Made by a program: the position numbers and the translations under genes
In this document: in pieces, positions 17,082-55,200 of the stretch
Position numbering within the stretch: position 1 is the first letter of the stretch
Layout of the letters: every line of letters begins with the position of its first letter
DNA from: Patescibacteria group bacterium
GTDB lineage: Bacteria; Patescibacteriota; Patescibacteriia; UBA10025; JAHIVO01
DNA: 64,000 bases
Reading direction: 5' to 3'
NCBI GenBank assembly: GCA_041650915.1
Contig: JBAZKE010000002.1
Span: forward strand, 16,638-80,637
The notes under the pieces: generated by a model
What the model was told of the DNA's origin: nothing
Seen by the model: the letters and a program-made list of their open reading frames with translations, nothing else
The model's database searches: none

Positions 17082-17318
17082 ATGGGAACACCAGCAAAAA
17101 GAAGGACAAAACAGCAAAAGCGCGAACGGGCGTCACACATCAAGCTCGAAAAGCAAGCCCTCACGTCATGCCCGAAGTGCAAGAAGCCAATTCGTCCGCA
17201 CTTCGTATGCAAATTCTGCGGCTACTACAAGGGCACAGACATTCTCTCTCTCGATACCAAGGCAGAACGCAAGAAGAAGAAACAAAAGAAGAGAGAGGAC
17301 AAGGCAAAAGGCAAATAA
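17082..17318 (+). CDS. rpmF: 50S ribosomal protein L32
   Basis: MGTPAKRRTKQQKRERASHIKL...CPKCKKPIRPHFVCKFCGYYKG is the L32 zinc-ribbon signature. ATG at 17082 is in frame within the ORF 16812-17318. Confidence 0.8.
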   Translation: MGTPAKRRTKQQKRERASHIKLEKQALTSCPKCKKPIRPHFVCKFCGYYKGTDILSLDTKAERKKKKQKKREDKAKGK

Positions 17319-19495: not shown

Positions 19496-19516
19496 AAATA
19501 ATTGAGCAAAAACCAC

Positions 19517-20434: not shown

Positions 20435-20435
20435 T

Positions 20436-20906: not shown

Positions 20907-20911
20907 ACGGG

Positions 20912-21832: not shown

Positions 21833-21834
21833 CT

Positions 21835-24599: not shown

Positions 24600-25458
24600 T
24601 ATGGATTACCTGCAGGAACGGAACAAAAAAACATACGCCGAGCGTGCGGCGCAAACGACGAACGAAATCGCGAAAAAACTGCTGACGCTCATGGATGAGA
24701 AGCAGACAAACCTCTGTTTCGCCGACGATGAGACCGACCCGGATAGGATGCTCGAGCAAGCTGACAGTGCCGGACCGGATATCGCGGTGCTGAAGACGCA
24801 CATCGACGCGGTCGAAGACTTCACTCCAAAAATTACTCAACAGCTTCAGGCGCTCAGTAAAAAACACGACTTTCTCATTTTTGAGGACCGCAAATTTGCC
24901 GATATCGGCAATACGGTCAAGCTGCAGTACGGAAAAGGCATATATAAAATCGCTGCGTGGTCGGACATCACAAATGCCCATATCGTGCCGGGTCCGGGGG
25001 TAATTGAGGGATTGAAAACTGTCGCGGTAAAGGCGGGCAAACCCCGTGGACTCATACTGCTTGCCCAAATGAGTTCAAAAGGCAATCTGGCAACCGATGA
25101 GTATACAAAAAAAGCCGTGGCAATGGCGGAACAATATCCGGACTTCGTGTTCGGCTTTATCGGTAACGGCGGGAACGTTGAAGAGCTTAGGAAGCTCGTA
25201 GCCTTAGCAGAACCGTCATTCGTTATCATGGCCCCTGGCGTCCAGCTCGGCGGCGGCGGGGATGCGCTCAAACAGCAGTACACCACGCCGGCTGATGTCA
25301 TCGCAGCCGGCGCTGACGTGATCATCGTCGGCCGCGGCATTTACGGCGCTCCAGACCCGCTGGAGGCGGCGAAACAATACCGTGCCGCCGGCTGGAATGC
25401 CTACCAAAAACGTAGTTCAAAAACCCAACCACGCTTGTCATTGCGAGCCCGACCCTGA
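24589..25458 (+). CDS. pyrF: Orotidine 5'-phosphate decarboxylase (long, eukaryote-like type)
   Basis: The [13 protein letters not shown] and KTHID motifs. Confidence 0.8.
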
Positions 25459-25568
25459 GCGAAGTCGAAGGGGGAGGGCGTGGCAATCCCAGAGATTGCT
25501 TCGCATCCGCTCGCAATGACAAACGTATAACGAATACATGTCTAACAACCATAAACTATAAACCAACT

Positions 25569-26504
25569 ATGAAACATTGCCTCCACCTCAAAGACTGGCA
25601 AGCCAATGAAATCCGCGCTGTCATTGAACGTGCCATCGAAATCAAAAAAAAACCCGCGGACTACGCTGACGTGCTGAAAAATAAGACGCTCATCATGCTG
25701 TTCCAAAAAGGGTCAACGCGCACCCGGCTCTCGTTCGAAGCGGGAATGACACAGCTTGGAGGGCACGCGATTTTTCTGGACCAAAAGACGACCCAGTTTG
25801 CCCTGACTGACTACCGGGATGAGATCAGGGCGGTCATGCGGTTTGGGCAGATCATGATGTTTCGTGCCAAGGAGTACAAGAATGTAGAAACGGCAGCGTC
25901 GTTCAACCAAATTCCCGTAATTGATGCCTGCTCAGAAAAGTACCATCCGTGCCAAGCTCTCGGCGATCTATTAACAATGGCTGAACACTCCGGCGGGCTG
26001 GATAAAATAAAGAAAGTGGTTTGGCTCGGAATTGAAAATAACGTTTGCAACACACTAAAACTCGCCTGTACAAAGCTCGGCATTGATTTTTACCTCGTAT
26101 CCCCAAAAGTCCACGAGATAAGCATTGACAAAGAGCTCAATACAATGGCAGATGCAACCGGACACGTACACAAAACTCTGGATTTAAAAGAAGCCATAAC
26201 GGGAGCCAACTATGTGCACACTGATACCTGGATGGATATGGAATTTTTTACGGACGGTAAAGTACTGCCGGGACACAAAGCAGAGTACGACAGACGCATC
26301 GAGCTTTTCAAGCCCTACCAGCTGAATGCCGCACTGCTTGAAAAATACAACCCTGATGTAAAAATCATGCACTGCATGCCCTGCCATGTGGGGTATGAAA
26401 TAACGTCCGATGCCATCAACCATCCGAATTCAGTCATCTTCGACCAAGCAGAGAACCGCATGCACATACAGAAGACGATAATGCTGCACCTGCTCGGGCT
26501 GTAG
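25569..26504 (+). CDS. Transcarbamylase of the ornithine carbamoyltransferase family, with a non-canonical ornithine-binding loop
   Basis: STRTR, HPCQ, HCMP and the OTC-like C-terminus FDQAENRMH. The SMG loop (DxWxSMG) is replaced by DTWMDME. Confidence 0.7.
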   Translation: MKHCLHLKDWQANEIRAVIERAIEIKKKPADYADVLKNKTLIMLFQKGSTRTRLSFEAGMTQLGGHAIFLDQKTTQFALTDYRDEIRAVMRFGQIMMFRAKEYKNVETAASFNQIPVIDACSEKYHPCQALGDLLTMAEHSGGLDKIKKVVWLGIENNVCNTLKLACTKLGIDFYLVSPKVHEISIDKELNTMADATGHVHKTLDLKEAITGANYVHTDTWMDMEFFTDGKVLPGHKAEYDRRIELFKPYQLNAALLEKYNPDVKIMHCMPCHVGYEITSDAINHPNSVIFDQAENRMHIQKTIMLHLLGL

Positions 26505-31204: not shown

Positions 31205-31308
31205 TACCCGGTACTATGCAAACCACCCCATGAACCTTGACAGTCAATATCGTGGTAAGAAAGAACGTTAATTCCATTTTTTGTACGTTTTAGTAAAAAC
31301 GTACACTA

Positions 31309-32799
<1,491 letters not shown>

Positions 32800-33040
32800 T
32801 CAAGGAGAATCACGCCGGTATTTATGCCGGCGAGGTCGATGCGCGGCCTCTCGAAGGCCGTGCAACCGCAGGTACCAACCTGCAAAAAACGCAAATACTT
32901 AGCGTTCTCTTCTTACCACAATAGTGACTGCCAAGTTCAAGGAATACGACTACAGCTCGATGTTGTACCAAACGAACCGAATTGATTTTTTCGCTCACGT
33001 CTAGTACACTGATTCCGAAGGCTGTAGCTTTTTTTATTAA

Positions 33041-33117
33041 GGGCGATTAGCTCAGGTGGTTAGAGCGCGTCACTGATAATGACGAGGTCCCAGGTTCGAA
33101 TCCTGGATCGCCCACCA
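33041..33117 (+). tRNA. tRNA-Ile (anticodon GAU) with encoded CCA
   Basis: GGGCGAT-TA-GCTCAGGTGGTTAGAGC-G-CGTCA-CTGATAA-TGACG-AGGTC-CCAGG-TTCGAAT-CCTGG-ATCGCCC-A-CCA. Confidence 0.9.
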
Positions 33118-33139
33118 CCATTTCAATCAATACTCGCTA

Positions 33140-33520
33140 ATGCCGATGTTTCCGCCGAGGTAGCTCAGTGGTTGAGTCCCGTATTTATGCCGAGGAATAA
33201 TATGCCGAGGTAGCTCAGTGGTAGAGCGAAGGACTGAAAATCCTTGCGTCGCCAGTCCGATTCTGGCCCTCGGCATAAATACGGGATAAACTCCGGACTG
33301 CATCGATGTGAAGAAAATCCTGGAGCCTGTCCCGCACACTGAACACAGTGAAGTGTTGCGGGATCTATCAGTCCGATTCTGGCCCTCGGCATGAGTGCGA
33401 TATTAATGAGCACTGAAAATCCTGGAGCCTGTCCTGAACATGTAGCGCAGCGAAATGGTTCAGGATCGCCAGTTCCCCCGGACTAGATCCGATTCTGACC
33501 CTCGGCATAAGCGAGAAATT
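33140..33520 (+). repeat. Array of degenerate tRNA-derived repeats
   Basis: The motif CAGTCCGATTCTGGCCCTCGGCAT occurs 3 times and (A)CTGAAAATCCT(GGAGCCTGTCC) occurs 3 times. The 5' tRNA segment GCCGAGGTAGCTCAGTGGT is duplicated, and a ~20-bp inverted repeat (CCCGTATTTATGCCGAGG / CCTCGGCATAAATACGGG) brackets the intact tRNA. Confidence 0.6.
33204..33275 (+). tRNA. tRNA-Phe-like (anticodon GAA) with an atypical T-loop (TCCGATT, C at position 55)
   Basis: GCCGAGG-TA-GCTC-AGTGGTA-GAGC-G-AAGGA-CTGAAAA-TCCTT-GCGTC-GCCAG-TCCGATT-CTGGC-CCTCGGC-A. It folds as a cloverleaf but lacks the canonical T54-Psi55. Confidence 0.5.
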
Positions 33521-40477: not shown

Positions 40478-42019
40478 ATGAATATCAAATTTCTCCTCAC
40501 CGCCCTAGTGGCGCCCTCTCTTCTGTGCGCCTGCATCATGCCGGCAGCCGCGCAGGAGCTGCCGACGCTCGAAACTCTCGGCCCGCTCGAGCAGGAGACG
40601 AACGAACTCTCTCCGGCCATTACATCGGATGAGTACATTGCCGTCAATAAAAAAGCCCTGTTCGATGCGTCCGAATCGACCCTCCTCGATACAACGGCAG
40701 AACCGGTATACCGCTGGGATTTTTCTGATGTCTCGGGTGCGCAGTTTGGCAAAGAAGTCGTGCATGAATTCGAACAAACGGGCATCCACCGCATCACCTT
40801 GACCATTCAGCAAGGGGAATTTCGTGCAACGGCAGAAAAGGAAATCTTTGCCTACGATAAAAAAATTTTCATGGTTACCGACCGTGACGTCGAGCAGGAA
40901 TTCCAGCTCATCGTGAACCAGGCTGCACACAATGGCGTTCTGCTGAAAATAGTATCGGGAGTGGAAGAAGAGACCGGCTTCCTTACGGAAGAAAAGCTCG
41001 TTCCCCTCATCAGCGAGGAAAGTGAATTCATTCGTGAAGCCGACGTGCTGCTCTTCTACGCGGACTCATCACTCGGCCTCCAAGGCTTTACGCGGTACTG
41101 GCAGAGCCTCGATGCCGATAAAAAAATCGATCTCAAACAAAAACTCATCATTAAAATCAGTGACCAGAATATGGGCATCGCCGCAAAGCTCGCCCAGCAG
41201 TCATTCGAGGTTATGGATCCGCAATACATCATTGTGACCCGCAAGGAAGCGCTCAATCCAATCTTTGAAAATGATGATGCGAACCTGCTCACGACCGAAT
41301 TTGACCGGCGCGCCATCGAGTATCGGATCGTTGACGCGCGGAGTGAAAAGCCGTATGCCTTCTTCTTGTCCCACGCGGTCACAAACTTCATCGCAAAGGG
41401 AATTCCGACGAATACCATCTATCTCATCCTCGCATTCCCCTTCATCGCATTCGTCGTCACGTTTGCGAGGCAGGTGATCGGCCTGTCTTCGTTTGGCGTT
41501 TTCACGCCATCGCTCATCGCGCTCGCACTCATCATCCTTGGCATTTACTTCGGAATCGGCACGCTCATCGTTGTCATCGTCGTGAGCTACCTCCTCCGGC
41601 TCATACTCAACAAGTTCAAGCTGCTTTACATACCGAAGACCGCCCTCATCCTATCAGTGACCGCCCTCTCATTCCTCGGGATTATTTGGTTCCTGTCATA
41701 CTATCGGGTCTCGTTAGCCGTCTCACTTGCGATTTTTCCGATGCTTGTCATGTCTACAATCTCCGAAAAATTCATATCCGCACAGTCTGAGGAAGGCTTC
41801 CGCGAAGCGCTGTTTGGCGTCTTCACGACCGTGCTGCTCGCCATAGCCGGCTACTACCTCGTCGTATGGAACGCATTCAACGACCTCATTATGTCATGGC
41901 CTGAGCTCATCATACTGCCGCTTATCGGCATGGTGCTCATCGGAAAATTTACAGGCCTTCGGCTGACTGAATACTTCAGGTTCAGGAGCCTGTTCAAGGA
42001 AAAAAACGTAGAAGAGTAA
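40478..42019 (+). CDS. Membrane protein with an N-terminal signal peptide, a ~300-aa extracytoplasmic region and a C-terminal 7-TM bundle; architecture consistent with the 'inactive transglutaminase fused to 7TM' family
   Basis: Signal peptide MNIKFLLTALVAPSLLCAC, then about 7 hydrophobic helices between residues ~330 and 500. The family assignment rests on architecture and on the neighbouring ATP-grasp gene; there is no motif-level confirmation. Confidence 0.5.
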   Translation: MNIKFLLTALVAPSLLCACIMPAAAQELPTLETLGPLEQETNELSPAITSDEYIAVNKKALFDASESTLLDTTAEPVYRWDFSDVSGAQFGKEVVHEFEQTGIHRITLTIQQGEFRATAEKEIFAYDKKIFMVTDRDVEQEFQLIVNQAAHNGVLLKIVSGVEEETGFLTEEKLVPLISEESEFIREADVLLFYADSSLGLQGFTRYWQSLDADKKIDLKQKLIIKISDQNMGIAAKLAQQSFEVMDPQYIIVTRKEALNPIFENDDANLLTTEFDRRAIEYRIVDARSEKPYAFFLSHAVTNFIAKGIPTNTIYLILAFPFIAFVVTFARQVIGLSSFGVFTPSLIALALIILGIYFGIGTLIVVIVVSYLLRLILNKFKLLYIPKTALILSVTALSFLGIIWFLSYYRVSLAVSLAIFPMLVMSTISEKFISAQSEEGFREALFGVFTTVLLAIAGYYLVVWNAFNDLIMSWPELIILPLIGMVLIGKFTGLRLTEYFRFRSLFKEKNVEE

Positions 42020-42026
42020 AACCGAT

Positions 42027-44369
42027 ATGCCGATCATACCAAAATCGTCGGGGATACTCGGCATCAACGCACGAAACCTCCTGTACGTCTCGCGCTACAA
42101 TACAAAATCGAGTAAGCTGCTGGCTGATGATAAAATCAGCACGAAATTTTTTTTGGCAACACGCGGTATCGGTACGGCAAAGCTGTACTACGCCATCAGG
42201 AACCTCGGCGAACTGCGCAACTTCAAGCCGACCCTGCTGCCGAGGCGCTTCGTCATAAAACCGAACCATGGATACGGCGGGGAGGGCATCATCGCGATCA
42301 AAGAAAAACGCGGCAGCTCGTACGTATCGACTGCGGGAAAACGGTACTCCTGGTCAGACCTCTTCGAGCACTGCGTGGGAATTCTCGACGGGCGGTACGC
42401 AATTTCCGGGCTCCATGACCAAATCATTTTCGAGGAACTCCTGGAGCAGCACGAATACTTCCAGCGATTCTCCGATAAAGGGCTCCCCGACATCCGCATC
42501 ATCGTTTTCCACTACGTGCCGGTCATTGCCATGCTCCGCCTGCCGACGGCGGAATCAGAGGGCAAGGCTAACCTTCACCTCGGCGCGATCGGCCTCGGCA
42601 TTGATATGGGCACCGGCAGAACAACATTCGCAGTCCGCAATAATAAGCTGATCAAGTATCTGCCGAATGGCGAACCTGTCCGCAGCATCATCATGCCGAA
42701 CTGGGATGAGATACTCCTCACCGCCTCCAGGACGCAGCACCTGACGCAGATCGGCTACCTCGCCGTAGATCTCGCACTCACGAAAACCGGGATTAAAATC
42801 CTGGAACTCAACGCCCGTGCCGGGCTCGCAATCCAAATATCAAACCAAGGCCTCCTCAGGAACAGGCTCGAGAAACTCTCTGACGTCAAGGTTATCTCGC
42901 CCGCCGAAGGCGTAAAGCTCGGCAAAGCGCTCTTCACCCGCGTCATTAAAGATTCGAAGAAAAAAGTGGCAGCCGAAAAGCCTACCATCGGCCTCTTTGA
43001 GTACGTGACGGTTCTGAGCGGCAGGGGCGGGCACGCGCTCGCAAAGGTTGATCCGCACGGCCAGCAAACGCTGATCGACCGAGGCTTGCAGCTCGACGAA
43101 AACGAACGCCTCCTCCCTATCAAGCTGAAAGGCGTCAAGCTGCAAATTCCTTTTGAACGTATGGACCTCTCACAGGCTGACCATAAAATCATACTCTCCG
43201 GCAAACACCTGCGGGATTTCCTTATTGACACGACGCAAACGCCTGATCCGTATGCCGCTGCGATATGGGTCGAAAGCAGGGCAGAAAAAATTATCCACAA
43301 TGTCGATAAAAAGCTCACCGATATCAACGGCGGCATCCGCCTCTTGGCACGGCTGAAGCCGCTCAACCTCCTCGAAGAGCAGCGGCGATTCTATAAAAAC
43401 CCTACAAGCTCCCCAAAATTCATATACCACCGCGATGCCGCGAGCATACAGAATTTACGCAGCGAATTGAAACGCATCCCGCGCAGCGTGGACCATCCGC
43501 TCATGCCGCTCTATTTAAAAAAAATTGAGGAGCTCTCGAGCAAACTGTCACTGCTTGACGCAGTCGGCAGCAGGGAAATCGAAATACATTCTCGGATGGT
43601 ATACGGGGATGTCACGGACACTGAATACCAGGAAGCGAAAACGCTCCTCAACAACCTGCACCCGAAGCCGGATGCGAGCAAGAAGCTCGGCATCGATGAA
43701 ATAACGTCTCGGCTTGAAACCTACCTGCGAGAAAATAAGCTCAACAAGTGGAAAATAAAACTCCTCGCGAGTACGACCGCCGACATGCAGATCAACAAGC
43801 AGAACACGATCCTCATCAATGAAAAGGTAAAATTCTCGGAGAATAGGCTCCGCGCACTCATCGCGCACGAGGTGGAAACGCACATCTACCGCCTCGAAAA
43901 CGGACGGGAACAACTGTATAAACTCTTTGAGCAGGGAACGGCAGGATATCTCCAGACGGAAGAGGGAATCGCCATGTACAACCAGCAGAAACTCGGCATA
44001 CCGCTCGGATCGAAAGAAGGCTGGCCAGCGCTCAACGTCATCGCCGTACATATGGGAAAGAGCATGTCATTTGCCGAACTCTTCCTCTACCTGTGCGACG
44101 AGTATGACGTAGACCGGGATACCGCTTGGAAAATTTGCACCAAGGTCAAGCGCGGGCTCCAGGACACGAGCGAGCATGCCGTATTTACCAAAGACCTCGT
44201 ATACTACACCGGCTACCGGAGCATCGAACGTTTTGTCCGCGAGCACGGCGAGCGGGCCCTCCAGAAGCTCTACGTAGGCAAAATAGGCGTCGATGATATC
44301 TTTATCATCGAAAAGATTAAAATGCAGAAGCCCAAGCTCCTGCCCGAGTACCTGCGACAGCTCCCATAG
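42027..44369 (+). CDS. Fusion protein: N-terminal RimK-like ATP-grasp (alpha-L-glutamate-ligase-related) plus a C-terminal domain with HExxH and a QEGLA-like motif (DUF1704-like)
   Basis: N-terminal GINARNLLYVSRYN...VIKPNHGYGGEGI...LELNARAGLAIQ is ATP-grasp. The C-terminus carries ALIAHEVETHIYR (HExxH) and LQTEEGIAMYNQ (QEGLA-like). Confidence 0.55.
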   Translation: MPIIPKSSGILGINARNLLYVSRYNTKSSKLLADDKISTKFFLATRGIGTAKLYYAIRNLGELRNFKPTLLPRRFVIKPNHGYGGEGIIAIKEKRGSSYVSTAGKRYSWSDLFEHCVGILDGRYAISGLHDQIIFEELLEQHEYFQRFSDKGLPDIRIIVFHYVPVIAMLRLPTAESEGKANLHLGAIGLGIDMGTGRTTFAVRNNKLIKYLPNGEPVRSIIMPNWDEILLTASRTQHLTQIGYLAVDLALTKTGIKILELNARAGLAIQISNQGLLRNRLEKLSDVKVISPAEGVKLGKALFTRVIKDSKKKVAAEKPTIGLFEYVTVLSGRGGHALAKVDPHGQQTLIDRGLQLDENERLLPIKLKGVKLQIPFERMDLSQADHKIILSGKHLRDFLIDTTQTPDPYAAAIWVESRAEKIIHNVDKKLTDINGGIRLLARLKPLNLLEEQRRFYKNPTSSPKFIYHRDAASIQNLRSELKRIPRSVDHPLMPLYLKKIEELSSKLSLLDAVGSREIEIHSRMVYGDVTDTEYQEAKTLLNNLHPKPDASKKLGIDEITSRLETYLRENKLNKWKIKLLASTTADMQINKQNTILINEKVKFSENRLRALIAHEVETHIYRLENGREQLYKLFEQGTAGYLQTEEGIAMYNQQKLGIPLGSKEGWPALNVIAVHMGKSMSFAELFLYLCDEYDVDRDTAWKICTKVKRGLQDTSEHAVFTKDLVYYTGYRSIERFVREHGERALQKLYVGKIGVDDIFIIEKIKMQKPKLLPEYLRQLP

Positions 44370-44375
44370 CAATCC

Positions 44376-44747
44376 CTACCGGATAATCTTCTTCACCGCA
44401 ACGATATCGCGCTGCACCTGCTTCCGCATGATCTTCGTACTCTCAAACGCGACGAGATTGCGGATTTTTTTTACTACCGTGACTTCCAGCTTCCTGCCGT
44501 ACAGGTTGCCGGTAAAGCCGAGGAGATGCGCCTCAACCTTTCCGATCCCCTTCCCCCGCAATGGCGCTACCCCAATGATAACGAGGGTGCGGTAGCATCC
44601 CTCGCGTACGATAACCCTTGCAGCGTACACGCCGTTGGAAATTCCCTTTCCCGACAAGGCCCGGCGCGAAAAATTCGCCGTCCGGAAGCCGAGCTTCCTC
44701 CCCAGCTTATCGCCGTGGATGACTGTCCCCCTGATTGTCTTCATCAC
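44376..44747 (-). CDS. Monofunctional riboflavin kinase (RibF C-terminal-domain type)
   Basis: GDKLGRKLGFRTANF and the overall flavokinase fold. There is no FAD synthetase domain. Confidence 0.65.
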   Translation of the reverse strand: MMKTIRGTVIHGDKLGRKLGFRTANFSRRALSGKGISNGVYAARVIVREGCYRTLVIIGVAPLRGKGIGKVEAHLLGFTGNLYGRKLEVTVVKKIRNLVAFESTKIMRKQVQRDIVAVKKIIR

Positions 44748-45520
44748 GCTATTGCTTTAATGAGCTGCTCGTGGATGAGCCCGTTGGTCGCAATCGCGCT
44801 CTCGCTGTCGAGCGACCACGGTTTCCCTCCATAATCGGAAACAACCCCGCCGGCCTCCCGTACGAGCAGCGCGCCGGGCGCGACGTCCCACTCAGAAACA
44901 TCCGGCGGCGGAATGACGACACCGTCAGTGCGCCCGACAGCAACGTACGCAAGGTCGAGCGAGCCGCTGCCAAGCCTGCGGGTGTTCATTGCCGTACGGC
45001 TCAACTTTTGCGCTACCTGCGCGGACCGTACGTGAGAATCACGGTGGTGCGAACGGCTGAGCGTAATCACCGCATCAATGAGCCTCGTATTACCCGAAAC
45101 CTTGATCCGGCGGTCATTCAAATACGCGCCAGCTCCGCGTTCTGCATAATACAGCTCATCGAGCATCGGCGCATAAATAATGCTCAGGAGAAGCTCCCTC
45201 CGGCGTACGAGGGCAATGGCGGTGCAGAATAGGGGGATCTTGAGCGTGTAGTTGAGGGTACCGTCGAGCGGGTCGATGACCCACATGTACGATTCGGGGT
45301 TTTTTTCCAATCCCGTCTCTTCACTGTAAAAATCATGGTCCGGGTATTCGTGCTTGATTGTGGAGATGATCGCATTGTTTGCCTCGAAGTCGGCGCTCGT
45401 GACAAGATCGTGCGCGCCCTTCTTTTCAATATCGGTATCTTTCAACGAAGCGTAGCTCCGCATGAGCCGATCGCCGGCGAGCTTGGCTGCCTTAAGCGCA
45501 ATCTGTTTAAATGTCGTCAT
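44744..45520 (-). CDS. Inositol monophosphatase / 3'(2'),5'-bisphosphate nucleotidase family protein
   Basis: EE..., WVIDPLDGTLNY and VAVGRTDG motifs. Confidence 0.8.
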   Translation of the reverse strand: MTTFKQIALKAAKLAGDRLMRSYASLKDTDIEKKGAHDLVTSADFEANNAIISTIKHEYPDHDFYSEETGLEKNPESYMWVIDPLDGTLNYTLKIPLFCTAIALVRRRELLLSIIYAPMLDELYYAERGAGAYLNDRRIKVSGNTRLIDAVITLSRSHHRDSHVRSAQVAQKLSRTAMNTRRLGSGSLDLAYVAVGRTDGVVIPPPDVSEWDVAPGALLVREAGGVVSDYGGKPWSLDSESAIATNGLIHEQLIKAIA

Positions 45521-49393: not shown

Positions 49394-49933
49394 TTAGAAT
49401 TTATTTTTTTGCAATCTGAGTGCGTACCCGAGTAAGTTAAAGAGGATATGCAGGCCGAATCCGAAACAAACCGTGAAAACGACGAATCCCCAGCCGGGGA
49501 AGTGCACGATGCTCGCCGCTGCGATAGCGCCGACCGTGTAGTCAATCTGATCGAACGGAATCCACGGCGTGCCCGGCGCCCTGTTCACCCTCCGCTTGAA
49601 GAAGCTGCGGATCGTATCCCCCCACACGGCTCCGGAACTGAGGAGGATCCCGAGTGCCCATGTCGTCTCGGGATAATCAAACCGGCTCAGTGTTTCAAAA
49701 AAATCAAACCGGTACAAATACTGCTGCAGGAGAAAAGTGAGGAGCCCAAAAATCGTGCCGAAAATAATACCCCGCCACGTCTTGTGGCTGCCGAAAATGC
49801 GCTTCCCCCGCCATGTCGCGCCGAAATCAACGCTGTACCTCAGCAGGGGGATAAAGCGTGAGAGCGAAGCGGTGAGGTTAGCGATGCCGGCCGGCAATAT
49901 AAACCAAATGCTCTGTCCGATGAGTAGCCACAT
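49394..49933 (-). CDS. CarS-like CTP-transferase (CDP-archaeol synthase family, DUF46) homologue
   Basis: Polytopic ~180-aa protein with the GKRIFGSHKTWRG motif, which resembles the archaeal CarS signature. Assignment is from memory. Confidence 0.45.
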   Translation of the reverse strand: MWLLIGQSIWFILPAGIANLTASLSRFIPLLRYSVDFGATWRGKRIFGSHKTWRGIIFGTIFGLLTFLLQQYLYRFDFFETLSRFDYPETTWALGILLSSGAVWGDTIRSFFKRRVNRAPGTPWIPFDQIDYTVGAIAAASIVHFPGWGFVVFTVCFGFGLHILFNLLGYALRLQKNKF

Positions 49934-50003
49934 GCAACCGTGCTGGTAATGCTTATCTTACGCTCATTGTATCAGGAACCGCACCTTTCCGAAAGTGCCG
50001 CCA

Positions 50004-50885
50004 TCAGGCGCGACCGTTGAGAACCTTCTTGCCCTCCGCGTAACCGTGATCAAAGATTTCATGGAGCTTTTCCGCATTGCGCTCGGCTGTCCGGTACCCC
50101 CGGCGGTTAATGGCGAGACGGACGTTCGGGAACGATCTCAGCTCTTGTTCAGAGGGGTATGAGAACGTCGCTGCGATTTTCTTGGCTACGACGCGCCAGC
50201 CGAAAATCGGCGCGTAGAACAGCGACTCTATAACGTGCCCGGGATATTCAAACATCGTTTTGAGGTGCGTCTTATTCCGATTACGCACGTAGATTACAGT
50301 TTTATCGCTGTGCTCTCGAATCACGTCCATAAAACCCTTCGAACGTATGGCGCTGCCGTCGATGTACCGCCTGCCGTTAATCTCGACGGCACGCGCGTAG
50401 TACGGCGCTGCCGATGATGAGGCCTTAATCGCCTGGAGCGTATCCGCCTTGGCATCCAGCAAAACATGCGAGCACGCGTCGACATCGTACACGCGTACGA
50501 AGAAACGCGTGGGCTGTTTTCTGATCTCTTCGACCGCGAGCTTCTTTTTATGTGACTCGATGTGATCGGTGAGGTAATCCATTTCAACGACATTCCGGAC
50601 CTGGTGGTTCCTGTTCACGGAAGCGTGCAACACATCCAAAAGGAACCGAGGTGCCTTCCGGTACGAGATGAACAGAGGACCCGCTAAATCTTCAAAGTAG
50701 ATGCTCGATCCGAACCTCGTCTGCCGCGACAAAAAGTACGCTCCGTTGTGGGCACCGGCCGAAACGCCGTACACGCTGTGCACACGCCCGTGAATTCCCG
50801 ACTCACTCAGCGCCGTCACCACGCCAGCGCCAAAAACGCCCTGCATGACCCCCTCCTCGAGTATCAAAACAATATCACGCTCCAT
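50004..50885 (-). CDS. Patatin-like phospholipase
   Basis: Gly-rich oxyanion motif (QGVFGAGV), the GVSAG nucleophile elbow and a downstream DGG region. Confidence 0.65.
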   Translation of the reverse strand: MERDIVLILEEGVMQGVFGAGVVTALSESGIHGRVHSVYGVSAGAHNGAYFLSRQTRFGSSIYFEDLAGPLFISYRKAPRFLLDVLHASVNRNHQVRNVVEMDYLTDHIESHKKKLAVEEIRKQPTRFFVRVYDVDACSHVLLDAKADTLQAIKASSSAAPYYARAVEINGRRYIDGSAIRSKGFMDVIREHSDKTVIYVRNRNKTHLKTMFEYPGHVIESLFYAPIFGWRVVAKKIAATFSYPSEQELRSFPNVRLAINRRGYRTAERNAEKLHEIFDHGYAEGKKVLNGRA

Positions 50886-50887
50886 GG

Positions 50888-52339
50888 CTAATCCTTCGGA
50901 CGGTTATCGATGACCCGCTTCTCCTTGAGCTCAGTTTCCATGCCGAGCATCTGGAGGAGCTCGGGCAGCTTCTTCTCAACGATCTGCGCATTGATAAAAA
51001 CCTCGTTATGAATCGCCTTCTGGATCTTCGGCTTGAGCTCAGAAAACGGCACCCCATTCTTCGGCGCCACGTAGAGCATGATCTCATCAATGTCGTACGG
51101 ATCGTTATTCCGCTTTCTGATTTCTACCTGCCACTCTTCAATTTCAGGCATCGGGGCGAGAACCGGATAAAAATTGTTGAGGTTGACGAGCTCACCCTTC
51201 ACTTTCGTGAGATGGAATTCCTTGATCTCTGAGGTGCGTTGGATATCCATCTTGATCCTCGGCACTGTCTTGCCGCAGTGCGGACACGGGCTGTACTCAA
51301 TACCCTCGGTCATATCTCCGGTCCGGTACCGCATGACCATTGTTCCGCGCCAGCCGAGCGATGTGTAGACGAGCTCACCCGGCTCGCCGTCTTTAACCCG
51401 ATTGCCGTCCTTGTCAATAACCTCAAAAAACTCAAAGTCTGGGTAGAGGTGGTACCCGGACTGTTCATGGCACTGGATCCAGGCTGCCTTACCTTCTGTG
51501 AATGCGTACGTCGACAGGAAGCGGACGTCCTTAGCCCCGACCTTGGCGAGGAGCTCCTTTGCCTTTGCCTTCATGCCCGCACTCGCCCGTTCGCCGCCGC
51601 TGATGATTACCTTGAGGCCTGAAAAATCCCGCCCCTGAGCTACAGCTTCCCGAAAGAGGTGGTACCCGTAGCCGGGGATGAACACGAGGAGCCCTGCCTT
51701 GAGGCGTTCAGTGGCGTCGAGTATTTTCTGCGTGCCCATGACCTTGCCGCCGCCGGTCTGGATTGACGTCATGCCGAGCTTGGTAAGCGCATTGTAGACC
51801 TGCCAAAACGCGAGGTGCGGCGCGTAAGGGAATGCGTTGATTGCGACGAGGTCTCTTGAAACGTGCGCGGTGTCAAGCATGCGCTCGCCGGCCTCCCGCA
51901 GGAGCTCTATATCATACGCGGAATAGGTGAATGACGTCGGCAGCGCGCTCCTGCCGGTCGTAAAGTGGACGTGGATCGGCTTGTACTCCCACTCAAGCTT
52001 TTTCTTGACATCCTGCTTCGTAACCTTGCCCCATACAATCTTTGCGAGGGCGCTCTTGCTTGCAAACTTTTTGATCAGCTTCTCGTCGGGCTGCAGGATA
52101 AATTCCCTCGGCTTTGCTGGATTCTCTGCAGTCGGCGCTATATCAGACTTCGATGTGAAGGGGATTTTCAGCAGATCGTCGGTTGTCTCGATATCATCAA
52201 ACCGCAGGCCGTTCTCCTGGAAGAGCCTCCGGTAGTACGGCGCGTACGGAAGCTGGTGCCGCACGTAATCGCGCAGAAGTTTATTCTGCAATTCTTTCTG
52301 CTGCTCGTACGGGAGCTGGGATACCTTGTTCCAATCCAT
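50888..52339 (-). CDS. Adenylate-forming enzyme of the PaaK / coenzyme F390 synthetase family
   Basis: FTTGRSALPTSFTYS (TSGTTG-like AMP motif), YGxTE-like and C-terminal lid regions. Confidence 0.6.
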   Translation of the reverse strand: MDWNKVSQLPYEQQKELQNKLLRDYVRHQLPYAPYYRRLFQENGLRFDDIETTDDLLKIPFTSKSDIAPTAENPAKPREFILQPDEKLIKKFASKSALAKIVWGKVTKQDVKKKLEWEYKPIHVHFTTGRSALPTSFTYSAYDIELLREAGERMLDTAHVSRDLVAINAFPYAPHLAFWQVYNALTKLGMTSIQTGGGKVMGTQKILDATERLKAGLLVFIPGYGYHLFREAVAQGRDFSGLKVIISGGERASAGMKAKAKELLAKVGAKDVRFLSTYAFTEGKAAWIQCHEQSGYHLYPDFEFFEVIDKDGNRVKDGEPGELVYTSLGWRGTMVMRYRTGDMTEGIEYSPCPHCGKTVPRIKMDIQRTSEIKEFHLTKVKGELVNLNNFYPVLAPMPEIEEWQVEIRKRNNDPYDIDEIMLYVAPKNGVPFSELKPKIQKAIHNEVFINAQIVEKKLPELLQMLGMETELKEKRVIDNRPKD

Positions 52340-52546
52340 ACGTCGTCGTTGTTACTTATTATGTATTGAATACGCCATTCGTGCCTATTGTCCGGACCTC
52401 ACCAGAGCGCCGATATGATCTATTATATCACGTGTAGCTGCAATGGGCAGCTCTCATATAATGCCGCTTTGCAGTGCAGATTGAGTATCAACTGCTCGCG
52501 CCGGGTTTGCCGTACGGCCATTGTCAGGATATTCGATGTGAGCTGT

Positions 52547-53185
52547 TTAAAAACGGTAATGCTTCCCGCACAGTGCTCCAATCCCCCGCATGACCGTCCG
52601 GTTCGCCTGTTCCAGCAGCTCTCTGCTGATAGGCTTGCCTACGAATTCTTTGAGGGACATCGGTTTGCCGATGGTAATATCAATAAACCCTTGCTTCGTA
52701 AACATGCTGCGAAATACCTCCCAGAAACTGTGCCCGGTTCCGTTGCGTATCCCGACTGGCACGAGAGGTGCGCCTGTCTCCAGTGCGAGGCGGACAGCTC
52801 CTGTTTTTGCCCGGCGGAGCTCAATCGGATCAGTATTGCGCGTCCCTTCAGGAAAAATGCCGACCGATTGCCCGCGTCGCACCGTCGCAATCGCTTCGAG
52901 GAGTGAACGGCGCTTATCCTGGTAGTACACCGGAATAAGCCCGAGCCAGTTCCCCGAAAGGCGCCCCCCGAGGCGCTTCCAGTACTCTTCCTTCGTGAAG
53001 AAGTATACCGGACGGTTGTAGTGCTCGAACATGAGCACGGCGAGCGCCGGAGCATCGAGGAATCCGCCGTGGTTTGCCGCGATAATGAAAGGATACTCTT
53101 TCGGCAGATGCTCGCGGCCCCGCACCGCACGAATCTTTCTCAATACGAGCGGGCCGCACAGCTGCCGGATGCATTCGTACGCCAT
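52547..53185 (-). CDS. 1-acyl-sn-glycerol-3-phosphate acyltransferase family (PlsC-like)
   Basis: The HxxxxD (NHGGFLD) and FPEGTR motifs. Confidence 0.75.
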   Translation of the reverse strand: MAYECIRQLCGPLVLRKIRAVRGREHLPKEYPFIIAANHGGFLDAPALAVLMFEHYNRPVYFFTKEEYWKRLGGRLSGNWLGLIPVYYQDKRRSLLEAIATVRRGQSVGIFPEGTRNTDPIELRRAKTGAVRLALETGAPLVPVGIRNGTGHSFWEVFRSMFTKQGFIDITIGKPMSLKEFVGKPISRELLEQANRTVMRGIGALCGKHYRF

Positions 53186-53205: not shown

Positions 53206-55200
53206 TTACACGATGAGACCGATTATCAGCAGGGCGACTATATTCAAAATTTTAATCATCGGATTGATAGCCGGGCCTGCGGTATCTTTGTACGGATCTC
53301 CCACCGTATCGCCCGTTACGGCAGCCTGGTGCGCTGGCGAGCCTTTGCCGCCGTGGTTGCCTGCCTCGATGTACTTCTTCGCATTGTCCCATGCGGCACC
53401 GCCGGTTGTCATCGAGACCGCTACAAAAATACCGGTAATGATACTACCGACAAGCAAGCCGCCGAGCGCAACCGGCCCGAGCAGTACGCCGACAAGTATC
53501 GGCGCCACGACCGGGATGAGTGCGGGGACCATCATCTGCTTGATCGCCCCGCGGGTCACGATATCAACGGTTCGGGCATAGTCCGGCTTCGCTGAGCCAT
53601 CCATAATCCCCTTAATTTCACGGAACTGGCGGCGGACCTCCTGCACGACGTACCCGGCAACCTTGCCGACTGCCTGCATCGCCAGAGCGCCGAAGTAGTA
53701 CGGCAGCAGGCCGCCGATGAGGAGGCCGATAAGCACCTTTGGATCGTCCAGAACGAAGGAAAAGAGGTTGCCCGTATTGGCAAGCTCCTGTATATAGGAA
53801 GCGAAGAGCACGAGCGCGGCTAAGCCGGCTGATCCGATCGCATACCCCTTGGTGACTGCCTTGGTAGTATTGCCGACGGCATCGAGCGGGTCGGTTACGT
53901 TGCGGACCTCTTCCGGCAGCTCCGCCATTTCCGCGATGCCGCCCGCATTATCGGTAATCGGACCGTACGCATCGATCGTGACAATGACGCCAGCAAGGGA
54001 CAGCATGCTCATGGCGGCAATGGCAATCCCATACAGATCAGCGAGCGAGTAGGCGGCGAGGATGCCTCCCCCGATGACGAGCACCGGCATCGCCGTTGAT
54101 TTCATGCTCACGGCAAGGCCGGATATGATATTGGTTGCGTGCCCGGTTTTCGAGCTCTCGGCAATCGACTGCACTGGCTTGTACTTCGTCGACGTGTAGT
54201 ACTCGGTGATGACAACGAGCAGCGCGGTCACGATGAGCCCGACGACTGATGCGAGGTAAATGTCCATGGTGCTGTAGAGCGGCACGTCAGCCATCAGCCA
54301 GCGGGTAATCGGATAGAATCCGATCGCCGCGAGTGCGCCCGAAACAATGACGCCCCGATAGAGCGCGCCCATGATGTTTTTTTTCTTACCGAGCCGGATA
54401 AAGAGAATGCCGACGATTGAGCTGACGATCGCAAGCCCGCCGATGACGAGCGGATAGGTGAGTGCATTTTCAAATCCAGCGAATGTCAGCGATCCGAGCA
54501 GCATGGTCGCCACTGCGGTAACCGCGTATGTCTCGAAGAGATCAGCTGCCATTCCGGCGCAGTCGCCGACGTTATCGCCGACGTTGTCGGCGATGACAGC
54601 CGGATTACGGGGATCGTCCTCTGGTATCCCCGCCTCAACTTTTCCGACGAGGTCCGCTCCGACGTCCGCCGCCTTGGTATAGATACCGCCGCCGAGGCGG
54701 GCGAATATCGAAATCAGGCTGCCGCCGAAACCAAGGCCGATGAGCGCAGTAATATCTTTGACAATCGCATAGTATCCCGCAACACCGAGCAAACCGAGCC
54801 CGACAACGAGCATTCCGGTCACCGCGCCGCCCTTTGATGCGACACCCAGAGCCTTGCTCAAGCCCTGCTTTGCCGCCTCCGCCGTACGGACGTTTGCACG
54901 CACCGAAACGTTCATGCCGATGTAGCCGGCAAGCGCGGAAAGCACTGCTCCGATGACAAAGCCGACAGCCGTATTCAGATTGATCAACAGCCACAAGAGC
55001 ACAAAAACGGGCACCGCGATGAGCAGGACGGTGCGCGTCTGGCGGTTGAGGTACGCTCCTGCGCCTTCCTGGATCGCTTTCGCGATCGACTGCATGCGTT
55101 CATTGCCTTTCGGCAGTCGAAAAATCCATCGGCTCAGCAGCAAGCCGTAGATAATGGCAAGCCCCGCTGCTCCGAGGGCAATGATTAGCTCTGTGGACAT
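53206..55200 (-). CDS. hppA: Membrane-bound proton/sodium-translocating pyrophosphatase
   Basis: [20 protein letters not shown] and [19 protein letters not shown], with 15-16 TM helices. Confidence 0.9.

What the first reader, a model, noticed from the sequence alone, without database searches (positions are those of the whole stretch)
49394..53185. Lipid-remodelling gene cluster: archaeal-type CarS-like CTP-transferase, patatin-like lipase, PaaK/F390-like adenylating enzyme and PlsC acyltransferase
Four consecutive minus-strand genes are tied to lipid metabolism. The first has the GKRIFG.HKTWRG motif of the CDP-archaeol synthase (CarS, DUF46) family rather than bacterial CdsA. Next to it are a patatin-like phospholipase, an ANL-superfamily adenylating enzyme and a PlsC-type acyltransferase, followed by the H+-pyrophosphatase. 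The combination suggests an unusual acyl-activation and lipid head-group pathway, possibly one that scavenges host lipids, as proposed for reduced-genome bacteria.
Basis: partly seen in the sequence, partly recalled or inferred. Interest (0 to 1): 0.55.

Follow-up and report, generated by a model that had tools for sequence, protein, structure and literature searches.

The report
Lipid-rebuilding gene cluster in a Patescibacterium
A tiny-genome (Patescibacteria) bacterium carries a real cluster of membrane-lipid genes, whose conserved core is an acyltransferase plus an uncharacterised adenylating enzyme shared with DPANN archaea, next to an archaeal-type CarS enzyme; it probably rebuilds phospholipids from scavenged parts, but no substrate has been tested.

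Summary
Four consecutive minus-strand genes encode a CarS-like CTP-transferase, a patatin-like lipase, a PaaK-family adenylating (ANL) enzyme and a PlsC-type acyltransferase, downstream of a membrane pyrophosphatase. The organism is a Patescibacterium (CPR).

The 179-aa protein is CarS-type, not CdsA. It passes the Pfam threshold, keeps the motif blocks it shares with A. pernix CarS, and its model matches that structure. It lacks the CdsA signature.

The four genes are not the conserved unit. Across 61 related Patescibacteria loci, acyltransferase genes (one to three) lie beside the ANL gene in 59. CarS is nearby in 11 and patatin in 10. Elsewhere in CPR, CarS-like genes overlap CDP-alcohol phosphatidyltransferase genes.

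The ANL enzyme is a highly conserved, uncharacterised PaaK-like subfamily. DPANN archaea carry copies at 50-54% identity. CarS and patatin show the same CPR/DPANN sharing.

Best reading (confidence about 0.5): a salvage and assembly route. The lipase releases fatty acids, the ANL enzyme activates them, acyltransferases build phosphatidic acid, and CarS makes the CDP-lipid. All substrates are inferred. Whether the genome also has CdsA could not be checked. This is a new variant of a known kind, of moderate interest.

The parts
49394..49933 (-). CarS-type integral-membrane CTP:lipid-phosphate cytidylyltransferase (179 aa). The model has six helices of four or more residues; the fold matches the five-TM ApCarS. 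Motifs: HKTWRG at 50-55, GDTIRSFFKR at 105-114, DQID at 128-131.
   Evidence: Pfam PF01864 98.3 bits. NCBIfam CarS equivalog 126.4 bits, below its cutoff of 148. phmmer to PDB 5GUF, E 6.2e-8, nearly full length. AF2 model pLDDT 93. Foldseek to 5GUF TM 0.72/0.81, rmsd 2.8 A; CdsA only TM about 0.46. Twenty invariant residues in the family alignment.
50004..50885 (-). Patatin-like Ser-Asp lipase (293 aa). No N-terminal signal or TM segment is visible, so it is probably cytoplasmic. GVSAG at 40-44 (Ser42), DGS at 176-178. The oxyanion motif is degenerate (EEGVMQG instead of GGGxR/KG).
   Evidence: Pfam PF01734 58.6 bits. Motifs by regex. Alignment of 15 family members, including two from archaeal-labelled loci. 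Present near ANL in only 10 of 61 CPR loci.
50888..52339 (-). PaaK-family adenylate-forming (ANL) enzyme of an uncharacterised subfamily specific to CPR and DPANN (483 aa). Variant P-loop TTGRSALPT at 127-135, YAFTE at 278, TGD at 340, CPHC at 352-355, C-terminal ELKEKRVIDNR at 470-480. It has a basic insertion of about 50 aa (residues 69-121, net charge +6) relative to PaaK.
   Evidence: Pfam AMP-binding 34.5 bits. Best NCBIfam hits FlxY, PaaK and F390 are all far below their cutoffs. PDB phmmer to BT_0428 and PaaK. AF2 pLDDT 83. Foldseek TM 0.74/0.82 to 4R1M/4R1L at 22% identity. The top 120 homologue clusters are all at least 60% identical. Invariant motifs in alignment A1.
52340..52546 (.). 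207-bp intergenic gap at the position where most relatives carry a second, ANL-proximal acyltransferase paralogue. It contains a weak promoter-like site (52387-52358, minus strand).
   Evidence: Relatives have two tandem acyltransferases. tblastn finds no remnant of the second one in the window. Promoter scan: 9 sites found against 6.2 expected, so not significant.
52547..53185 (-). PlsC/LPLAT-superfamily acyltransferase (212 aa). HGGFLD (HX4D) at 39-44, FPEGTR at 111-116, VPVGI at 142-146. It is the orthologue of the PPase-proximal paralogue of relatives.
   Evidence: Pfam PF01553 76.4 bits. TIGR00530 64.4 bits, below its cutoff of 102.95, and weaker hits to Aas-type models. 46% identical to L004 AT1 against 31% to AT2. 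Paralogue groups correlate with gene position. Motifs by regex.
53206..55200 (-). Membrane ion-pumping pyrophosphatase (664 aa). It is the conserved upstream neighbour. A role as the sink for PPi released by the ANL and CarS reactions is possible but inferred.
   Evidence: Pfam H_PPase 904.6 bits. NCBIfam NF001951 1079 bits, above its cutoff of 859. The neighbour clustering found PPase within 6 kb of ANL in 48 loci.

Best explanation
This is a genuine phospholipid salvage and assembly neighbourhood in a Patescibacteria genome.

Shown: the four family assignments, intact catalytic motifs, and near-universal gene coupling between PlsC-type acyltransferase(s) and a PaaK-family adenylating enzyme.

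Inferred mechanism:
1. The ANL enzyme uses ATP to activate free fatty acids to acyl-AMP. These fatty acids are scavenged, or released by the cytoplasmic patatin-like Ser-Asp lipase from acquired phospholipids or lysolipids. The acyl group then passes to a thiol carrier or directly onward.
2. The acyltransferase(s) put these acyl groups on glycerol-3-phosphate or lysophospholipids to give phosphatidic acid or repaired phospholipids. There is one acyltransferase here and usually two in relatives.
3. The CarS-type CTP-transferase converts the lipid phosphate to a CDP-activated lipid.
4. A CDP-alcohol phosphatidyltransferase encoded elsewhere attaches the head group.
5. The adjacent membrane pyrophosphatase can remove the PPi made in steps 1 and 3.

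In function this resembles a split Aas / Lands-cycle reacylation system joined to the CDP-diglyceride step, with an archaeal-type enzyme in the place of CdsA.
For: Families and motifs:
- All four proteins pass Pfam thresholds.
- HX4D, FPEGTR, GxSxG, DGS, and the ANL A5, A7 and A10-like motifs are present. Their conservation in the family alignments is seen.

Acyltransferase-ANL coupling:
- In 61 Patescibacteria loci anchored on ANL, an acyltransferase lies immediately upstream on the same strand in 52, and within three genes in 7 more. The intergenic gap is under 60 nt in 45.
- The pair persists where NusA, PPase and Tig have been lost (L037, L057, L059, L061, L063, L064, L066, L083).
- L037 has a fused double acyltransferase, with two PF01553 stretches in one 445-aa protein.

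The lipid theme recurs in independent arrangements:
- CarS lies downstream of ANL in the window's clade and in L045/L046, but upstream of the acyltransferase in L025 and L078.
- L040 has a CDP-alcohol phosphatidyltransferase inserted between PPase and the acyltransferases.
- The Woesearchaeota locus L077 has ANL-acyltransferase-patatin, and L080 has patatin-ANL.

CarS role:
- In distant CPR loci the CarS-like gene overlaps a CDP-OH_P_transf gene (L008, L009, L010, L092).
- In a Nanoarchaeota locus it lies between a UbiA gene and three CDP-OH_P_transf genes.
- Fold and motifs match ApCarS.

Biological context:
- CPR genomes generally lack fatty-acid synthesis and ACP-dependent steps, and CPR cells are enriched in lysolipids (PMC7242380).
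Against: - No substrate is tested.
- The closest characterised relatives of the ANL enzyme act on aryl or short acids (phenylacetate, 2-hydroxyisobutyrate, 3-hydroxyanthranilate-type), not long-chain fatty acids. Its P-loop is atypical (TTGRSA instead of GTTG).
- CarS (11 of 61) and patatin (10 of 61) are only occasionally near ANL. The slot between ANL and Tig carries unrelated cargo in other genomes: zeta toxin, an ADP-ribosyltransferase, CNNM, PhoU-like.
- The whole region is syntenic with housekeeping genes, so PPase adjacency may be historical rather than functional.
- Characterised archaeal CarS discriminates against phosphatidic acid and did not complement an E. coli cdsA mutant (PMC9385802).
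- The 64-kb window contains no CDP-alcohol phosphatidyltransferase, PlsY, ACP or CoA gene.
- I could not determine whether the genome also has CdsA.
Confidence: 0.5

Rival explanations
1. Only the acyltransferase-ANL pair is a functional unit. Patatin and CarS sit beside it in this lineage by accident, because they landed in a variable insertion slot between ANL and trigger factor. CarS works independently with a CDP-alcohol phosphatidyltransferase encoded elsewhere.
For: CarS is near ANL in 11 of 61 loci and patatin in 10 of 61. The ANL-Tig slot holds zeta toxin, ART-PolyVal, CNNM/CBS and PhoU-like genes in other genomes. In distant CPR the partner of CarS is CDP-OH_P_transf, with no ANL or acyltransferase nearby.
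Against: CarS occurs beside the acyltransferase and ANL in at least three different arrangements and at several separate points of the ANL tree (L078, L025, L045/46, the window's clade). Another lipid head-group gene is inserted in the cluster in L040. Patatin is next to ANL in two archaeal-labelled loci in different orders. All of these genes are lipid genes, which random cargo would not be.
Confidence: 0.2
2. The CarS-like enzyme keeps its archaeal specificity. It makes CDP-archaeol from ether isoprenoid lipid phosphate taken from archaeal hosts or neighbours, so the cell handles both ester and ether lipids.
For: The protein is CarS-type in sequence and fold. It is 45% identical to a Nanoarchaeota CarS that sits in a canonical archaeal lipid cluster of UbiA plus three CDP-OH_P_transf genes. 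Some Paceibacteria-type Patescibacteria parasitise methanogenic archaea (PMC12281837). Characterised CarS prefers DGGGP (PMC9385802).
Against: The window and the CPR loci have no GGGPS or DGGGPS gene beside CarS; only L009 has a UbiA gene, 10 kb away. In this clade its neighbours are ester-lipid enzymes: PlsC-type acyltransferases and patatin. The host of this organism is unknown.
Confidence: 0.15
3. The ANL enzyme does not activate fatty acids. It adenylates another carboxylate (an aryl acid, amino acid or cofactor-like acid), and the acyltransferases attach it to a lipid or other acceptor, as in the lipid anchoring of aryl-polyene or flexirubin-type pigments or in CoA-independent ester or amide ligases.
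For: The best NCBIfam hit is FlxY of flexirubin biosynthesis (149 bits), followed by PaaK, DVU_1553 and F390 synthetase. Structural neighbours include NatL2, AjiA1 and ClxA, which adenylate aryl acids. The substrate-pocket region (NAFPYAPHLAFW) differs from that of PaaK.
Against: No polyketide, ACP or pigment genes occur in any of the 61 loci, and the de novo neighbour clustering finds no other recurrent partner. The enzyme is at least 54% identical across a large clade of genome-reduced organisms, which is more consistent with an essential housekeeping function such as membrane synthesis. All NCBIfam scores are far below the cutoffs.
Confidence: 0.12

Closest known systems
CDP-archaeol synthase CarS (A. 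pernix ApCarS, PDB 5GUF; A. fulgidus AfCarS)
   Same: Same Pfam family, same length of about 180 aa, same five-TM monomer-type fold (TM 0.72/0.81). The blocks GKxxxGxxKTxxG, GDxxxSFxKRR and DQxD are conserved.
   Different: Only 24-35% identical to canonical archaeal CarS. It falls in a separate clade shared by CPR and Nanoarchaeota/DHVE6 and scores below the NCBIfam equivalog cutoff. The host is a bacterium with no adjacent GGGPS or DGGGPS, and the neighbours are ester-lipid enzymes. The substrate is unknown.
Bacterial CDP-diacylglycerol synthase CdsA (T. maritima TmCdsA, PDB 4Q2E)
   Same: The predicted reaction type is the same: CMP transfer from CTP to a lipid phosphate, feeding CDP-alcohol phosphatidyltransferases. 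The catalytic core is distantly homologous (Foldseek probability 0.85-0.97, TM about 0.46).
   Different: It lacks the KDx5PGHGGx2DRxD signature and the N-terminal and dimerisation domains, at 179 aa against about 260-290 aa. PF01148 scores below threshold.
E. coli Aas (2-acyl-GPE acyltransferase / acyl-ACP synthetase) and the Lands-cycle reacylation logic
   Same: A PlsC-superfamily acyltransferase is coupled to an adenylate-forming enzyme. The window's acyltransferase gives weak hits to Aas-type models. A phospholipase A-type enzyme lies nearby.
   Different: Here the two activities are separate genes. The ANL enzyme is PaaK-type rather than FadD-type. No ACP is evident in the window or in the ANL neighbourhoods. 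One to three acyltransferase paralogues are present.
Phenylacetate-CoA ligase PaaK and BT_0428 (PDB 2Y27, 2Y4O, 4R1L)
   Same: Same fold and domain order, with a full-length alignment and a shared C-terminal K-x-K-R-x-x-D-x-R region.
   Different: About 22% identity. TIGR02155 scores 103.5 bits against a cutoff of 646. It has a basic insertion of about 50 aa, a variant P-loop, and an invariant CxxC and FPYAPHLAFW block. The genomic context is lipid acyltransferases rather than a paa operon.

Membership tests
CDP-archaeol synthase (CarS, Pfam PF01864 / NCBIfam NF003114) | Sequence match above the Pfam gathering threshold over the full length | tested here: met
   98.3 bits against 22; residues 4-176 match profile positions 4-172 of 175.
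CDP-archaeol synthase (CarS, Pfam PF01864 / NCBIfam NF003114) | Score above the NCBIfam equivalog cutoff (same function as characterised CarS) | tested here: not met
   126.4 bits against a cutoff of 148.
CDP-archaeol synthase (CarS, Pfam PF01864 / NCBIfam NF003114) | Five-TM fold of ApCarS without the CdsA dimerisation domain | tested here: met
   AF2 pLDDT 93. Foldseek to 5GUF: TM 0.72/0.81, rmsd 2.8 A, the only hit with E below 0.001.
CDP-archaeol synthase (CarS, Pfam PF01864 / NCBIfam NF003114) | Conserved polar residues of the cytoplasmic loops (K-T, G-D, S-F-x-K-R-R, D-Q-x-D) | tested here: met
   K51, T52, G105, D106, S110, F112, K113, R114, D128, Q129 and D131 are invariant in 20 sequences and align with the same residues of ApCarS. 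Which of them bind metal or CTP was not mapped residue by residue.
CDP-archaeol synthase (CarS, Pfam PF01864 / NCBIfam NF003114) | Genomic or pathway association with archaeal ether-lipid enzymes (GGGPS, DGGGPS/UbiA) | tested here: not met
   None in the window or next to CarS in the CPR loci. It is present in the Nanoarchaeota locus L091.
CDP-archaeol synthase (CarS, Pfam PF01864 / NCBIfam NF003114) | Catalyses DGGGP + CTP -> CDP-archaeol | not testable with these tools
   Needs an enzyme assay.
Bacterial CdsA (Pfam PF01148 CTP_transf_1) | Pfam threshold and the CDS signature KDx5PGHGGx2DRxD | tested here: not met
   20.3 bits against 24, partial match only. The signature is absent from the protein and from all 1.6 Mb of fetched loci. 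Signature taken from PMC7018664.
Patatin-like phospholipase (PF01734) | Pfam threshold; GxSxG nucleophile; DG[AGS] catalytic Asp | tested here: met
   58.6 bits against 27.7. GVSAG at 40-44 and DGS at 176-178, conserved in the family alignment.
Patatin-like phospholipase (PF01734) | Glycine-rich oxyanion and phosphate-binding motif GGGxR/KG | tested here: inconclusive
   The window has EEGVMQG and relatives have GGxMxG. The basic residue is replaced throughout this subfamily. The motif definition is from my own knowledge.
Phenylacetate-CoA ligase PaaK / coenzyme F390 synthetase (ANL superfamily, PaaK-like branch) | ANL superfamily membership and PaaK-type fold | tested here: met
   PF00501 34.5 bits against 29.9. 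Foldseek TM 0.74/0.82 to BT_0428 and PaaK. A5 (YAFTE), A7 (TGD) and an A10-like Lys are present; the A3 P-loop is a variant.
Phenylacetate-CoA ligase PaaK / coenzyme F390 synthetase (ANL superfamily, PaaK-like branch) | Equivalog-level match to PaaK (TIGR02155), F390 synthetase (TIGR03335) or FlxY (NF053551) | tested here: not met
   103.5 bits against 646.3; 59 against 458.7; 149.3 against 520.
PlsC / LPLAT acyltransferase superfamily (PF01553) | Pfam threshold; motif I HX4D; motif III FPEGTR; motif IV | tested here: met
   76.4 bits against 23. HGGFLD, FPEGTR and VPVGI are present. HX4D is found in 109 of 116 neighbouring acyltransferases.
PlsC / LPLAT acyltransferase superfamily (PF01553) | Specific identity as 1-acyl-G3P acyltransferase PlsC (TIGR00530 / PRK15018) | tested here: not met
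   64.4 bits against 102.95; 19.9 against 501. Acceptor and donor are unknown.
Aas-type bifunctional acyltransferase / acyl-ACP synthetase | Fusion of the acyltransferase and a FadD-type synthetase, with dependence on ACP | tested here: not met
   The genes are separate, the ANL is PaaK-type, and no ACP was found in the window or as a recurrent neighbour. This is an analogy only.

The most novel reading that the evidence does not exclude
A large Patescibacteria clade, together with Woesearchaeota/Nanoarchaeota-type DPANN archaea, shares a dedicated membrane-rebuilding toolkit that moved between the two domains. It comprises a specialised PaaK-type adenylating enzyme, PlsC-type acyltransferases, a patatin lipase and a CarS-subfamily CTP-transferase. 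In the bacteria, the CarS-type enzyme would have taken over the CdsA step and would act on diacyl phosphatidic acid, or on both ester and ether lipids. The ANL enzyme would supply acyl groups without the classical ACP route. Enzymes from both sides of the 'lipid divide' would then operate in a single pathway in symbionts that cannot make lipids de novo.
Probability: 0.25. Interest if true: 0.8.

Novelty: new variant of a known kind. Interest (0 to 1): 0.55.

Why it matters
How CPR bacteria and DPANN archaea obtain and maintain membranes without fatty-acid or isoprenoid lipid synthesis is an open question. Published work reports lysolipid enrichment in CPR and finds PlsY and PlsC but no PlsX or ACP-dependent enzymes, which leaves the acyl donor unexplained (PMC7242380).

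A near-universal acyltransferase-ANL gene pair offers a concrete, testable candidate for that missing acyl-activation step. The ANL enzyme is at least 54% identical across the Patescibacteria loci and 50-54% identical in the archaeal-labelled loci.

An archaeal-type CarS working next to ester-lipid enzymes in a bacterium would also bear on how strict the lipid divide is at enzyme level. All four proteins are small and could be tested by heterologous expression.

Tried and rejected
1. Other lipid genes in the window. I looked for CDP-alcohol phosphatidyltransferase, ACP, CdsA and PlsY by tblastn and by Pfam scans of essentially all ORFs. None was found. This is not evidence of absence from the genome.
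2. Remnant of the second acyltransferase paralogue in the 207-bp gap. None was found.
3. The ORFs of about 213-231 aa downstream of ANL in archaeal loci. I considered that they might be divergent acyltransferases. L077's copy is PCMT (protein isoaspartate methyltransferase) by Pfam, and the others are closely similar by sequence.
4. De novo clustering of all ORFs of at least 45 aa within 6 kb of ANL, to find a hidden carrier protein. The short unlabelled clusters look like shadow ORFs of conserved genes, though only two were checked individually; none was ACP-like.
5. Amphipathic-helix analysis of the ANL insertion. It is not outstanding by hydrophobic moment, only basic at +6, so I make no membrane-anchor claim.
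6. CdsA-signature regex over the 1.6 Mb of fetched loci. No hit, but each genome is sampled at only about 20 kb, so this carries little weight.
7. Promoter and terminator scan of the cluster. Promoter-like sites are not above shuffled expectation, and no terminator-like site lies in an intergenic gap of the cluster.
8. Literature. Nine full-text searches found no paper describing CarS in CPR or this ANL-acyltransferase module. The library lacks most subscription journals, and the ApCarS structure paper was not held.
9. Whole-genome check for CdsA. I could not fetch whole genomes, so whether CdsA coexists in this genome is unresolved.

Full report
**1. The observation**

- CarS-like PF01864: 98.3 bits, full length.
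- Patatin PF01734: 58.6 bits.
- AMP-binding PF00501: 34.5 bits.
- Acyltransferase PF01553: 76.4 bits.

The upstream gene, 53206-55200, is a membrane pyrophosphatase (904.6 bits). CdsA's family (PF01148) reaches only 20.3 bits, below its cutoff of 24, over a fragment of the 179-aa protein.

At the finer NCBIfam level none of the four reaches an equivalog cutoff. CarS scores 126.4 against 148. FlxY, PaaK and F390 synthetase score 149, 103 and 59 against 520, 646 and 459. AGP acyltransferase scores 64 against 103. The family names therefore hold only at family or superfamily level.

**2. Organism and setting**

Homologues are named "[Patescibacteria group bacterium]", Kerfeldbacteria, Parcubacteria and Gribaldobacteria. 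The window matches a Logan contig exactly. The rest of the window is housekeeping: IF-2, RbfA, ClpP, RNase Y, FtsH, S1, GyrA, NusB, RNase III, a pyrimidine pathway, SMC, a 16S rRNA, PNPase and others. The window holds no other lipid, ACP or CoA gene. The cluster lies inside a run of about 17 co-directional genes, so strand alone gives no operon evidence. Promoter-like sites in the region are no more frequent than in shuffled sequence.

**3. The CarS-like protein**

- It aligns nearly end to end with the only solved CarS, A. pernix 5GUF (E 6.2e-8).
- A 20-sequence family alignment has 20 invariant residues. They include the K-T of GKxxxGxxKTxxG, the G-D and S-F-x-K-R-R of the second cytoplasmic loop, and D-Q-x-D. 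All of these align with identical ApCarS residues.
- The AlphaFold model is confident (pLDDT 93). Its only strong PDB match is 5GUF (TM 0.72/0.81, rmsd 2.8 A). T. maritima CdsA matches only over the shared catalytic core (TM about 0.46).
- The CdsA signature KDx5PGHGGx2DRxD (PMC7018664) is absent.

A midpoint-rooted NJ tree without support values gives two groups. One holds canonical archaeal CarS (TACK, Methanobacteriota, Aenigmarchaeota), which is 24-35% identical to the window protein. The other holds the Patescibacteria proteins interleaved with a Nanoarchaeota and a DHVE6 protein, at 42-74% identity.

The Nanoarchaeota copy lies in a textbook archaeal lipid cluster, next to a UbiA/DGGGPS-like gene and three CDP-alcohol phosphatidyltransferase genes. 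In distant CPR genomes the CarS-like gene overlaps a CDP-alcohol phosphatidyltransferase gene by a few bases (L008, L009, L010, L092). This context supports the inferred reaction: making a CDP-activated lipid for head-group transfer. Which lipid phosphate it uses is not shown. Characterised CarS prefers DGGGP, and AfCarS failed to complement an E. coli cdsA mutant (PMC9385802).

**4. The adenylating enzyme is the most striking component**

Its 120 best homologue clusters are all about 483 aa long and at least 60% identical. This is far more conserved than CarS, which is down to 42% identity by rank 120. Invariant features:
- a variant P-loop, HFTTGR
- NAFPYAPHL
- GGGK
- TYAxTE
- YRTGD
- a CxxC motif
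- a C-terminal GMETELKxKRxxDxR

It also has a basic insertion of about 50 aa relative to PaaK.

Sequence and fold place it in the PaaK branch of the ANL superfamily: BT_0428, PaaK1/2, HCL, NatL2, AjiA1 and ClxA, with TM up to 0.74/0.82 at about 22% identity. That branch contains both CoA ligases and CoA-independent ester- or amide-forming ligases, so the fold does not fix the substrate.

A scan of one genome per species found 231 relatives. The 80 loci kept include Woesearchaeota, Nanoarchaeota and other archaeal-labelled bins at 50-54% identity. In an NJ tree the archaeal copies form their own clade next to the Patescibacteria clade.

**5. What is actually conserved around it**

In the 61 Patescibacteria loci with an intact ANL ORF:
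- A PlsC-type acyltransferase gene lies immediately upstream on the same strand in 52, and within three genes in 7 more.
- The remaining two loci (L069, L070) have only a few genes on one side of ANL because the contig ends close by.
- 15 loci have one acyltransferase, 34 have two and 10 have three.
- The intergenic distance is under 60 nt in 45 of the 52.

The acyltransferases fall into paralogue groups that track gene position. L037 has a fused double acyltransferase, with two PF01553 stretches in one 445-aa protein; a 435-aa acyltransferase ORF in L065 may be similar but was not scanned. The pair survives where NusA, PPase and Tig are gone. This is strong evidence of functional coupling.

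The window's acyltransferase is the orthologue of the PPase-proximal paralogue: 46% identity to L004 AT1 against 31% to AT2. The ANL-proximal paralogue is missing, leaving a 207-bp gap with no remnant.

By contrast, CarS is within three genes of ANL in 11 of 61 loci and patatin in 10 of 61. The slot between ANL and trigger factor holds unrelated cargo elsewhere: zeta toxin, an ADP-ribosyltransferase, CNNM/CBS and a PhoU-like protein.

The link is probably still not accidental:
- CarS also occurs upstream of the acyltransferases in L025 and L078.
- A CDP-alcohol phosphatidyltransferase is inserted between PPase and the acyltransferases in L040.
- In archaeal-labelled loci, patatin sits next to ANL in two different orders: L077 has ANL-acyltransferase-patatin-PCMT and L080 has patatin-ANL.

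De novo clustering of all neighbours found no further recurrent partner and no ACP-like small protein.

**6. Patatin and the acyltransferase look catalytically competent**

The patatin protein has GVSAG (Ser42) and DGS (Asp176). Its glycine-rich oxyanion motif is degenerate (EEGVMQG; relatives have GGxMxG). No signal peptide or TM segment is visible, which suggests a cytoplasmic enzyme. The acyltransferase has HX4D, FPEGTR and VPVGI.

**7. Mechanism**

Shown: families, motifs, folds and gene coupling.

Inferred:
- The ANL enzyme activates free fatty acids.
- The acyltransferase(s) esterify G3P or lysophospholipids.
- Patatin supplies fatty acids or lysolipids from acquired lipid.
- CarS cytidylylates the resulting lipid phosphate.
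- A CDP-alcohol phosphatidyltransferase elsewhere adds the head group.
- The adjacent pyrophosphatase removes PPi from both nucleotide-consuming steps.

This fits published CPR biology. These organisms lack fatty-acid synthesis. PlsY and PlsC are present but PlsX and ACP-dependent enzymes are not found, and the cells are enriched in lysolipids (PMC7242380).

Weak points:
- No characterised close relative of the ANL enzyme uses long-chain fatty acids.
- The acyl carrier (CoA, ACP or none) is unknown.
- The CarS substrate is unknown.
- I could not check whether the genome also has CdsA.

I put this model at about 0.5. The rivals are: (a) only the acyltransferase-ANL pair is linked, and CarS and patatin are neighbours by chance (0.2); (b) CarS keeps ether-lipid specificity (0.15); (c) the ANL enzyme activates a non-fatty acid (0.12).

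**8. Comparison with known systems and novelty**

- Functionally, the closest analogy is a split Aas / Lands-cycle reacylation system joined to the CDP-diglyceride step. It is not a member of the Aas family: the genes are separate, the ANL is PaaK-type, and no ACP is evident.
- The 179-aa protein is a member of the CarS family by sequence, motifs and fold. It belongs to a distinct subfamily shared by CPR and DPANN, falls below the equivalog cutoff, and lacks the archaeal pathway context.
- Public annotation already calls these proteins "CDP-archaeol synthase" and "AMP-binding protein". Nine full-text searches found no paper that describes CarS in CPR or the acyltransferase-ANL module. The library lacks most subscription journals.

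I rate this a new variant of a known kind, with interest 0.55. The individual genes are ordinary family members. The near-universal acyltransferase-ANL pair, its sharing with DPANN archaea, and an archaeal-type CTP-transferase among ester-lipid enzymes give a testable handle on how ultra-small symbionts rebuild membranes.

Noticed in passing
window 50888-52339 (-); loci L071-L090: The ANL enzyme family is shared between Patescibacteria and archaeal-labelled bins (Woesearchaeota, Nanoarchaeota and others) at 50-54% identity. The archaeal copies form one clade in an NJ tree. CarS-like and patatin proteins show the same cross-domain sharing. This suggests exchange of lipid-handling genes between the two groups of ultra-small symbionts.
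   Followed up: partly
L037 8013-9350; L065 4352-5659: L037 has two PF01553 acyltransferase domains fused in one 445-aa protein upstream of ANL (Pfam). L065 has a 435-aa acyltransferase ORF at the same position that may be a similar fusion but was not scanned. A fusion suggests that the paralogues act together.
   Followed up: partly
window 53206-55200 (-): NCBIfam names the pyrophosphatase 'sodium-translocating'. The protein carries [10 protein letters not shown], with Lys at the A/K position, which from my own knowledge marks K+-independent, H+-pumping PPases.
   Followed up: no
window 31306-32800 (+), 33041-33276 (+): There is a complete 16S rRNA gene (1448.6 bits), followed by tRNA-Ile(GAT) and tRNA-Phe but no 23S rRNA in the window. 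The rRNA genes therefore appear unlinked.
   Followed up: no
window 6698-6773 (-): A tRNA-Ile with anticodon TAT (UAU), an uncommon way for bacteria to read AUA. The usual route is a lysidine-modified CAU tRNA.
   Followed up: no
window 19502-26504 (+): A nearly complete pyrimidine de novo pathway: ATCase catalytic and regulatory chains, dihydroorotate dehydrogenase, an amidohydrolase, a phosphoribosyltransferase and OMP decarboxylase, plus a second carbamoyltransferase-family gene (25569-26504). This is notable in a genome-reduced Patescibacterium.
   Followed up: no
window 40478-44369 (+): A PKD / 7TM-transglutaminase-associated membrane protein sits next to a 780-aa fusion of a sugar-transfer-type ATP-grasp domain and a MATCAP-like carboxypeptidase domain. 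The pair is conserved in relatives (L001, L002, L004). Function unknown.
   Followed up: no
L021, L026, L028, L032, L035, L040 (region between ANL and trigger factor): The slot downstream of ANL is a variable region carrying zeta toxin, an ART-PolyVal ADP-ribosyltransferase, CNNM/CBS and PhoU-like genes in different genomes. It behaves like an insertion hot spot inside otherwise conserved synteny.
   Followed up: partly
window 44744-45520 (-): An inositol-monophosphatase-family gene is conserved in the same synteny block about 4 kb downstream of CarS (also in L001, L002, L004, L006). A link to inositol-phosphate head-group chemistry is possible but purely speculative.
   Followed up: no
window 16812-17318 (+): The mechanical ORF containing ribosomal protein L32 is 168 aa, with the L32p domain only at residues 94-145. 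The true start is probably much further downstream, or there is an unusual N-terminal extension.
   Followed up: no
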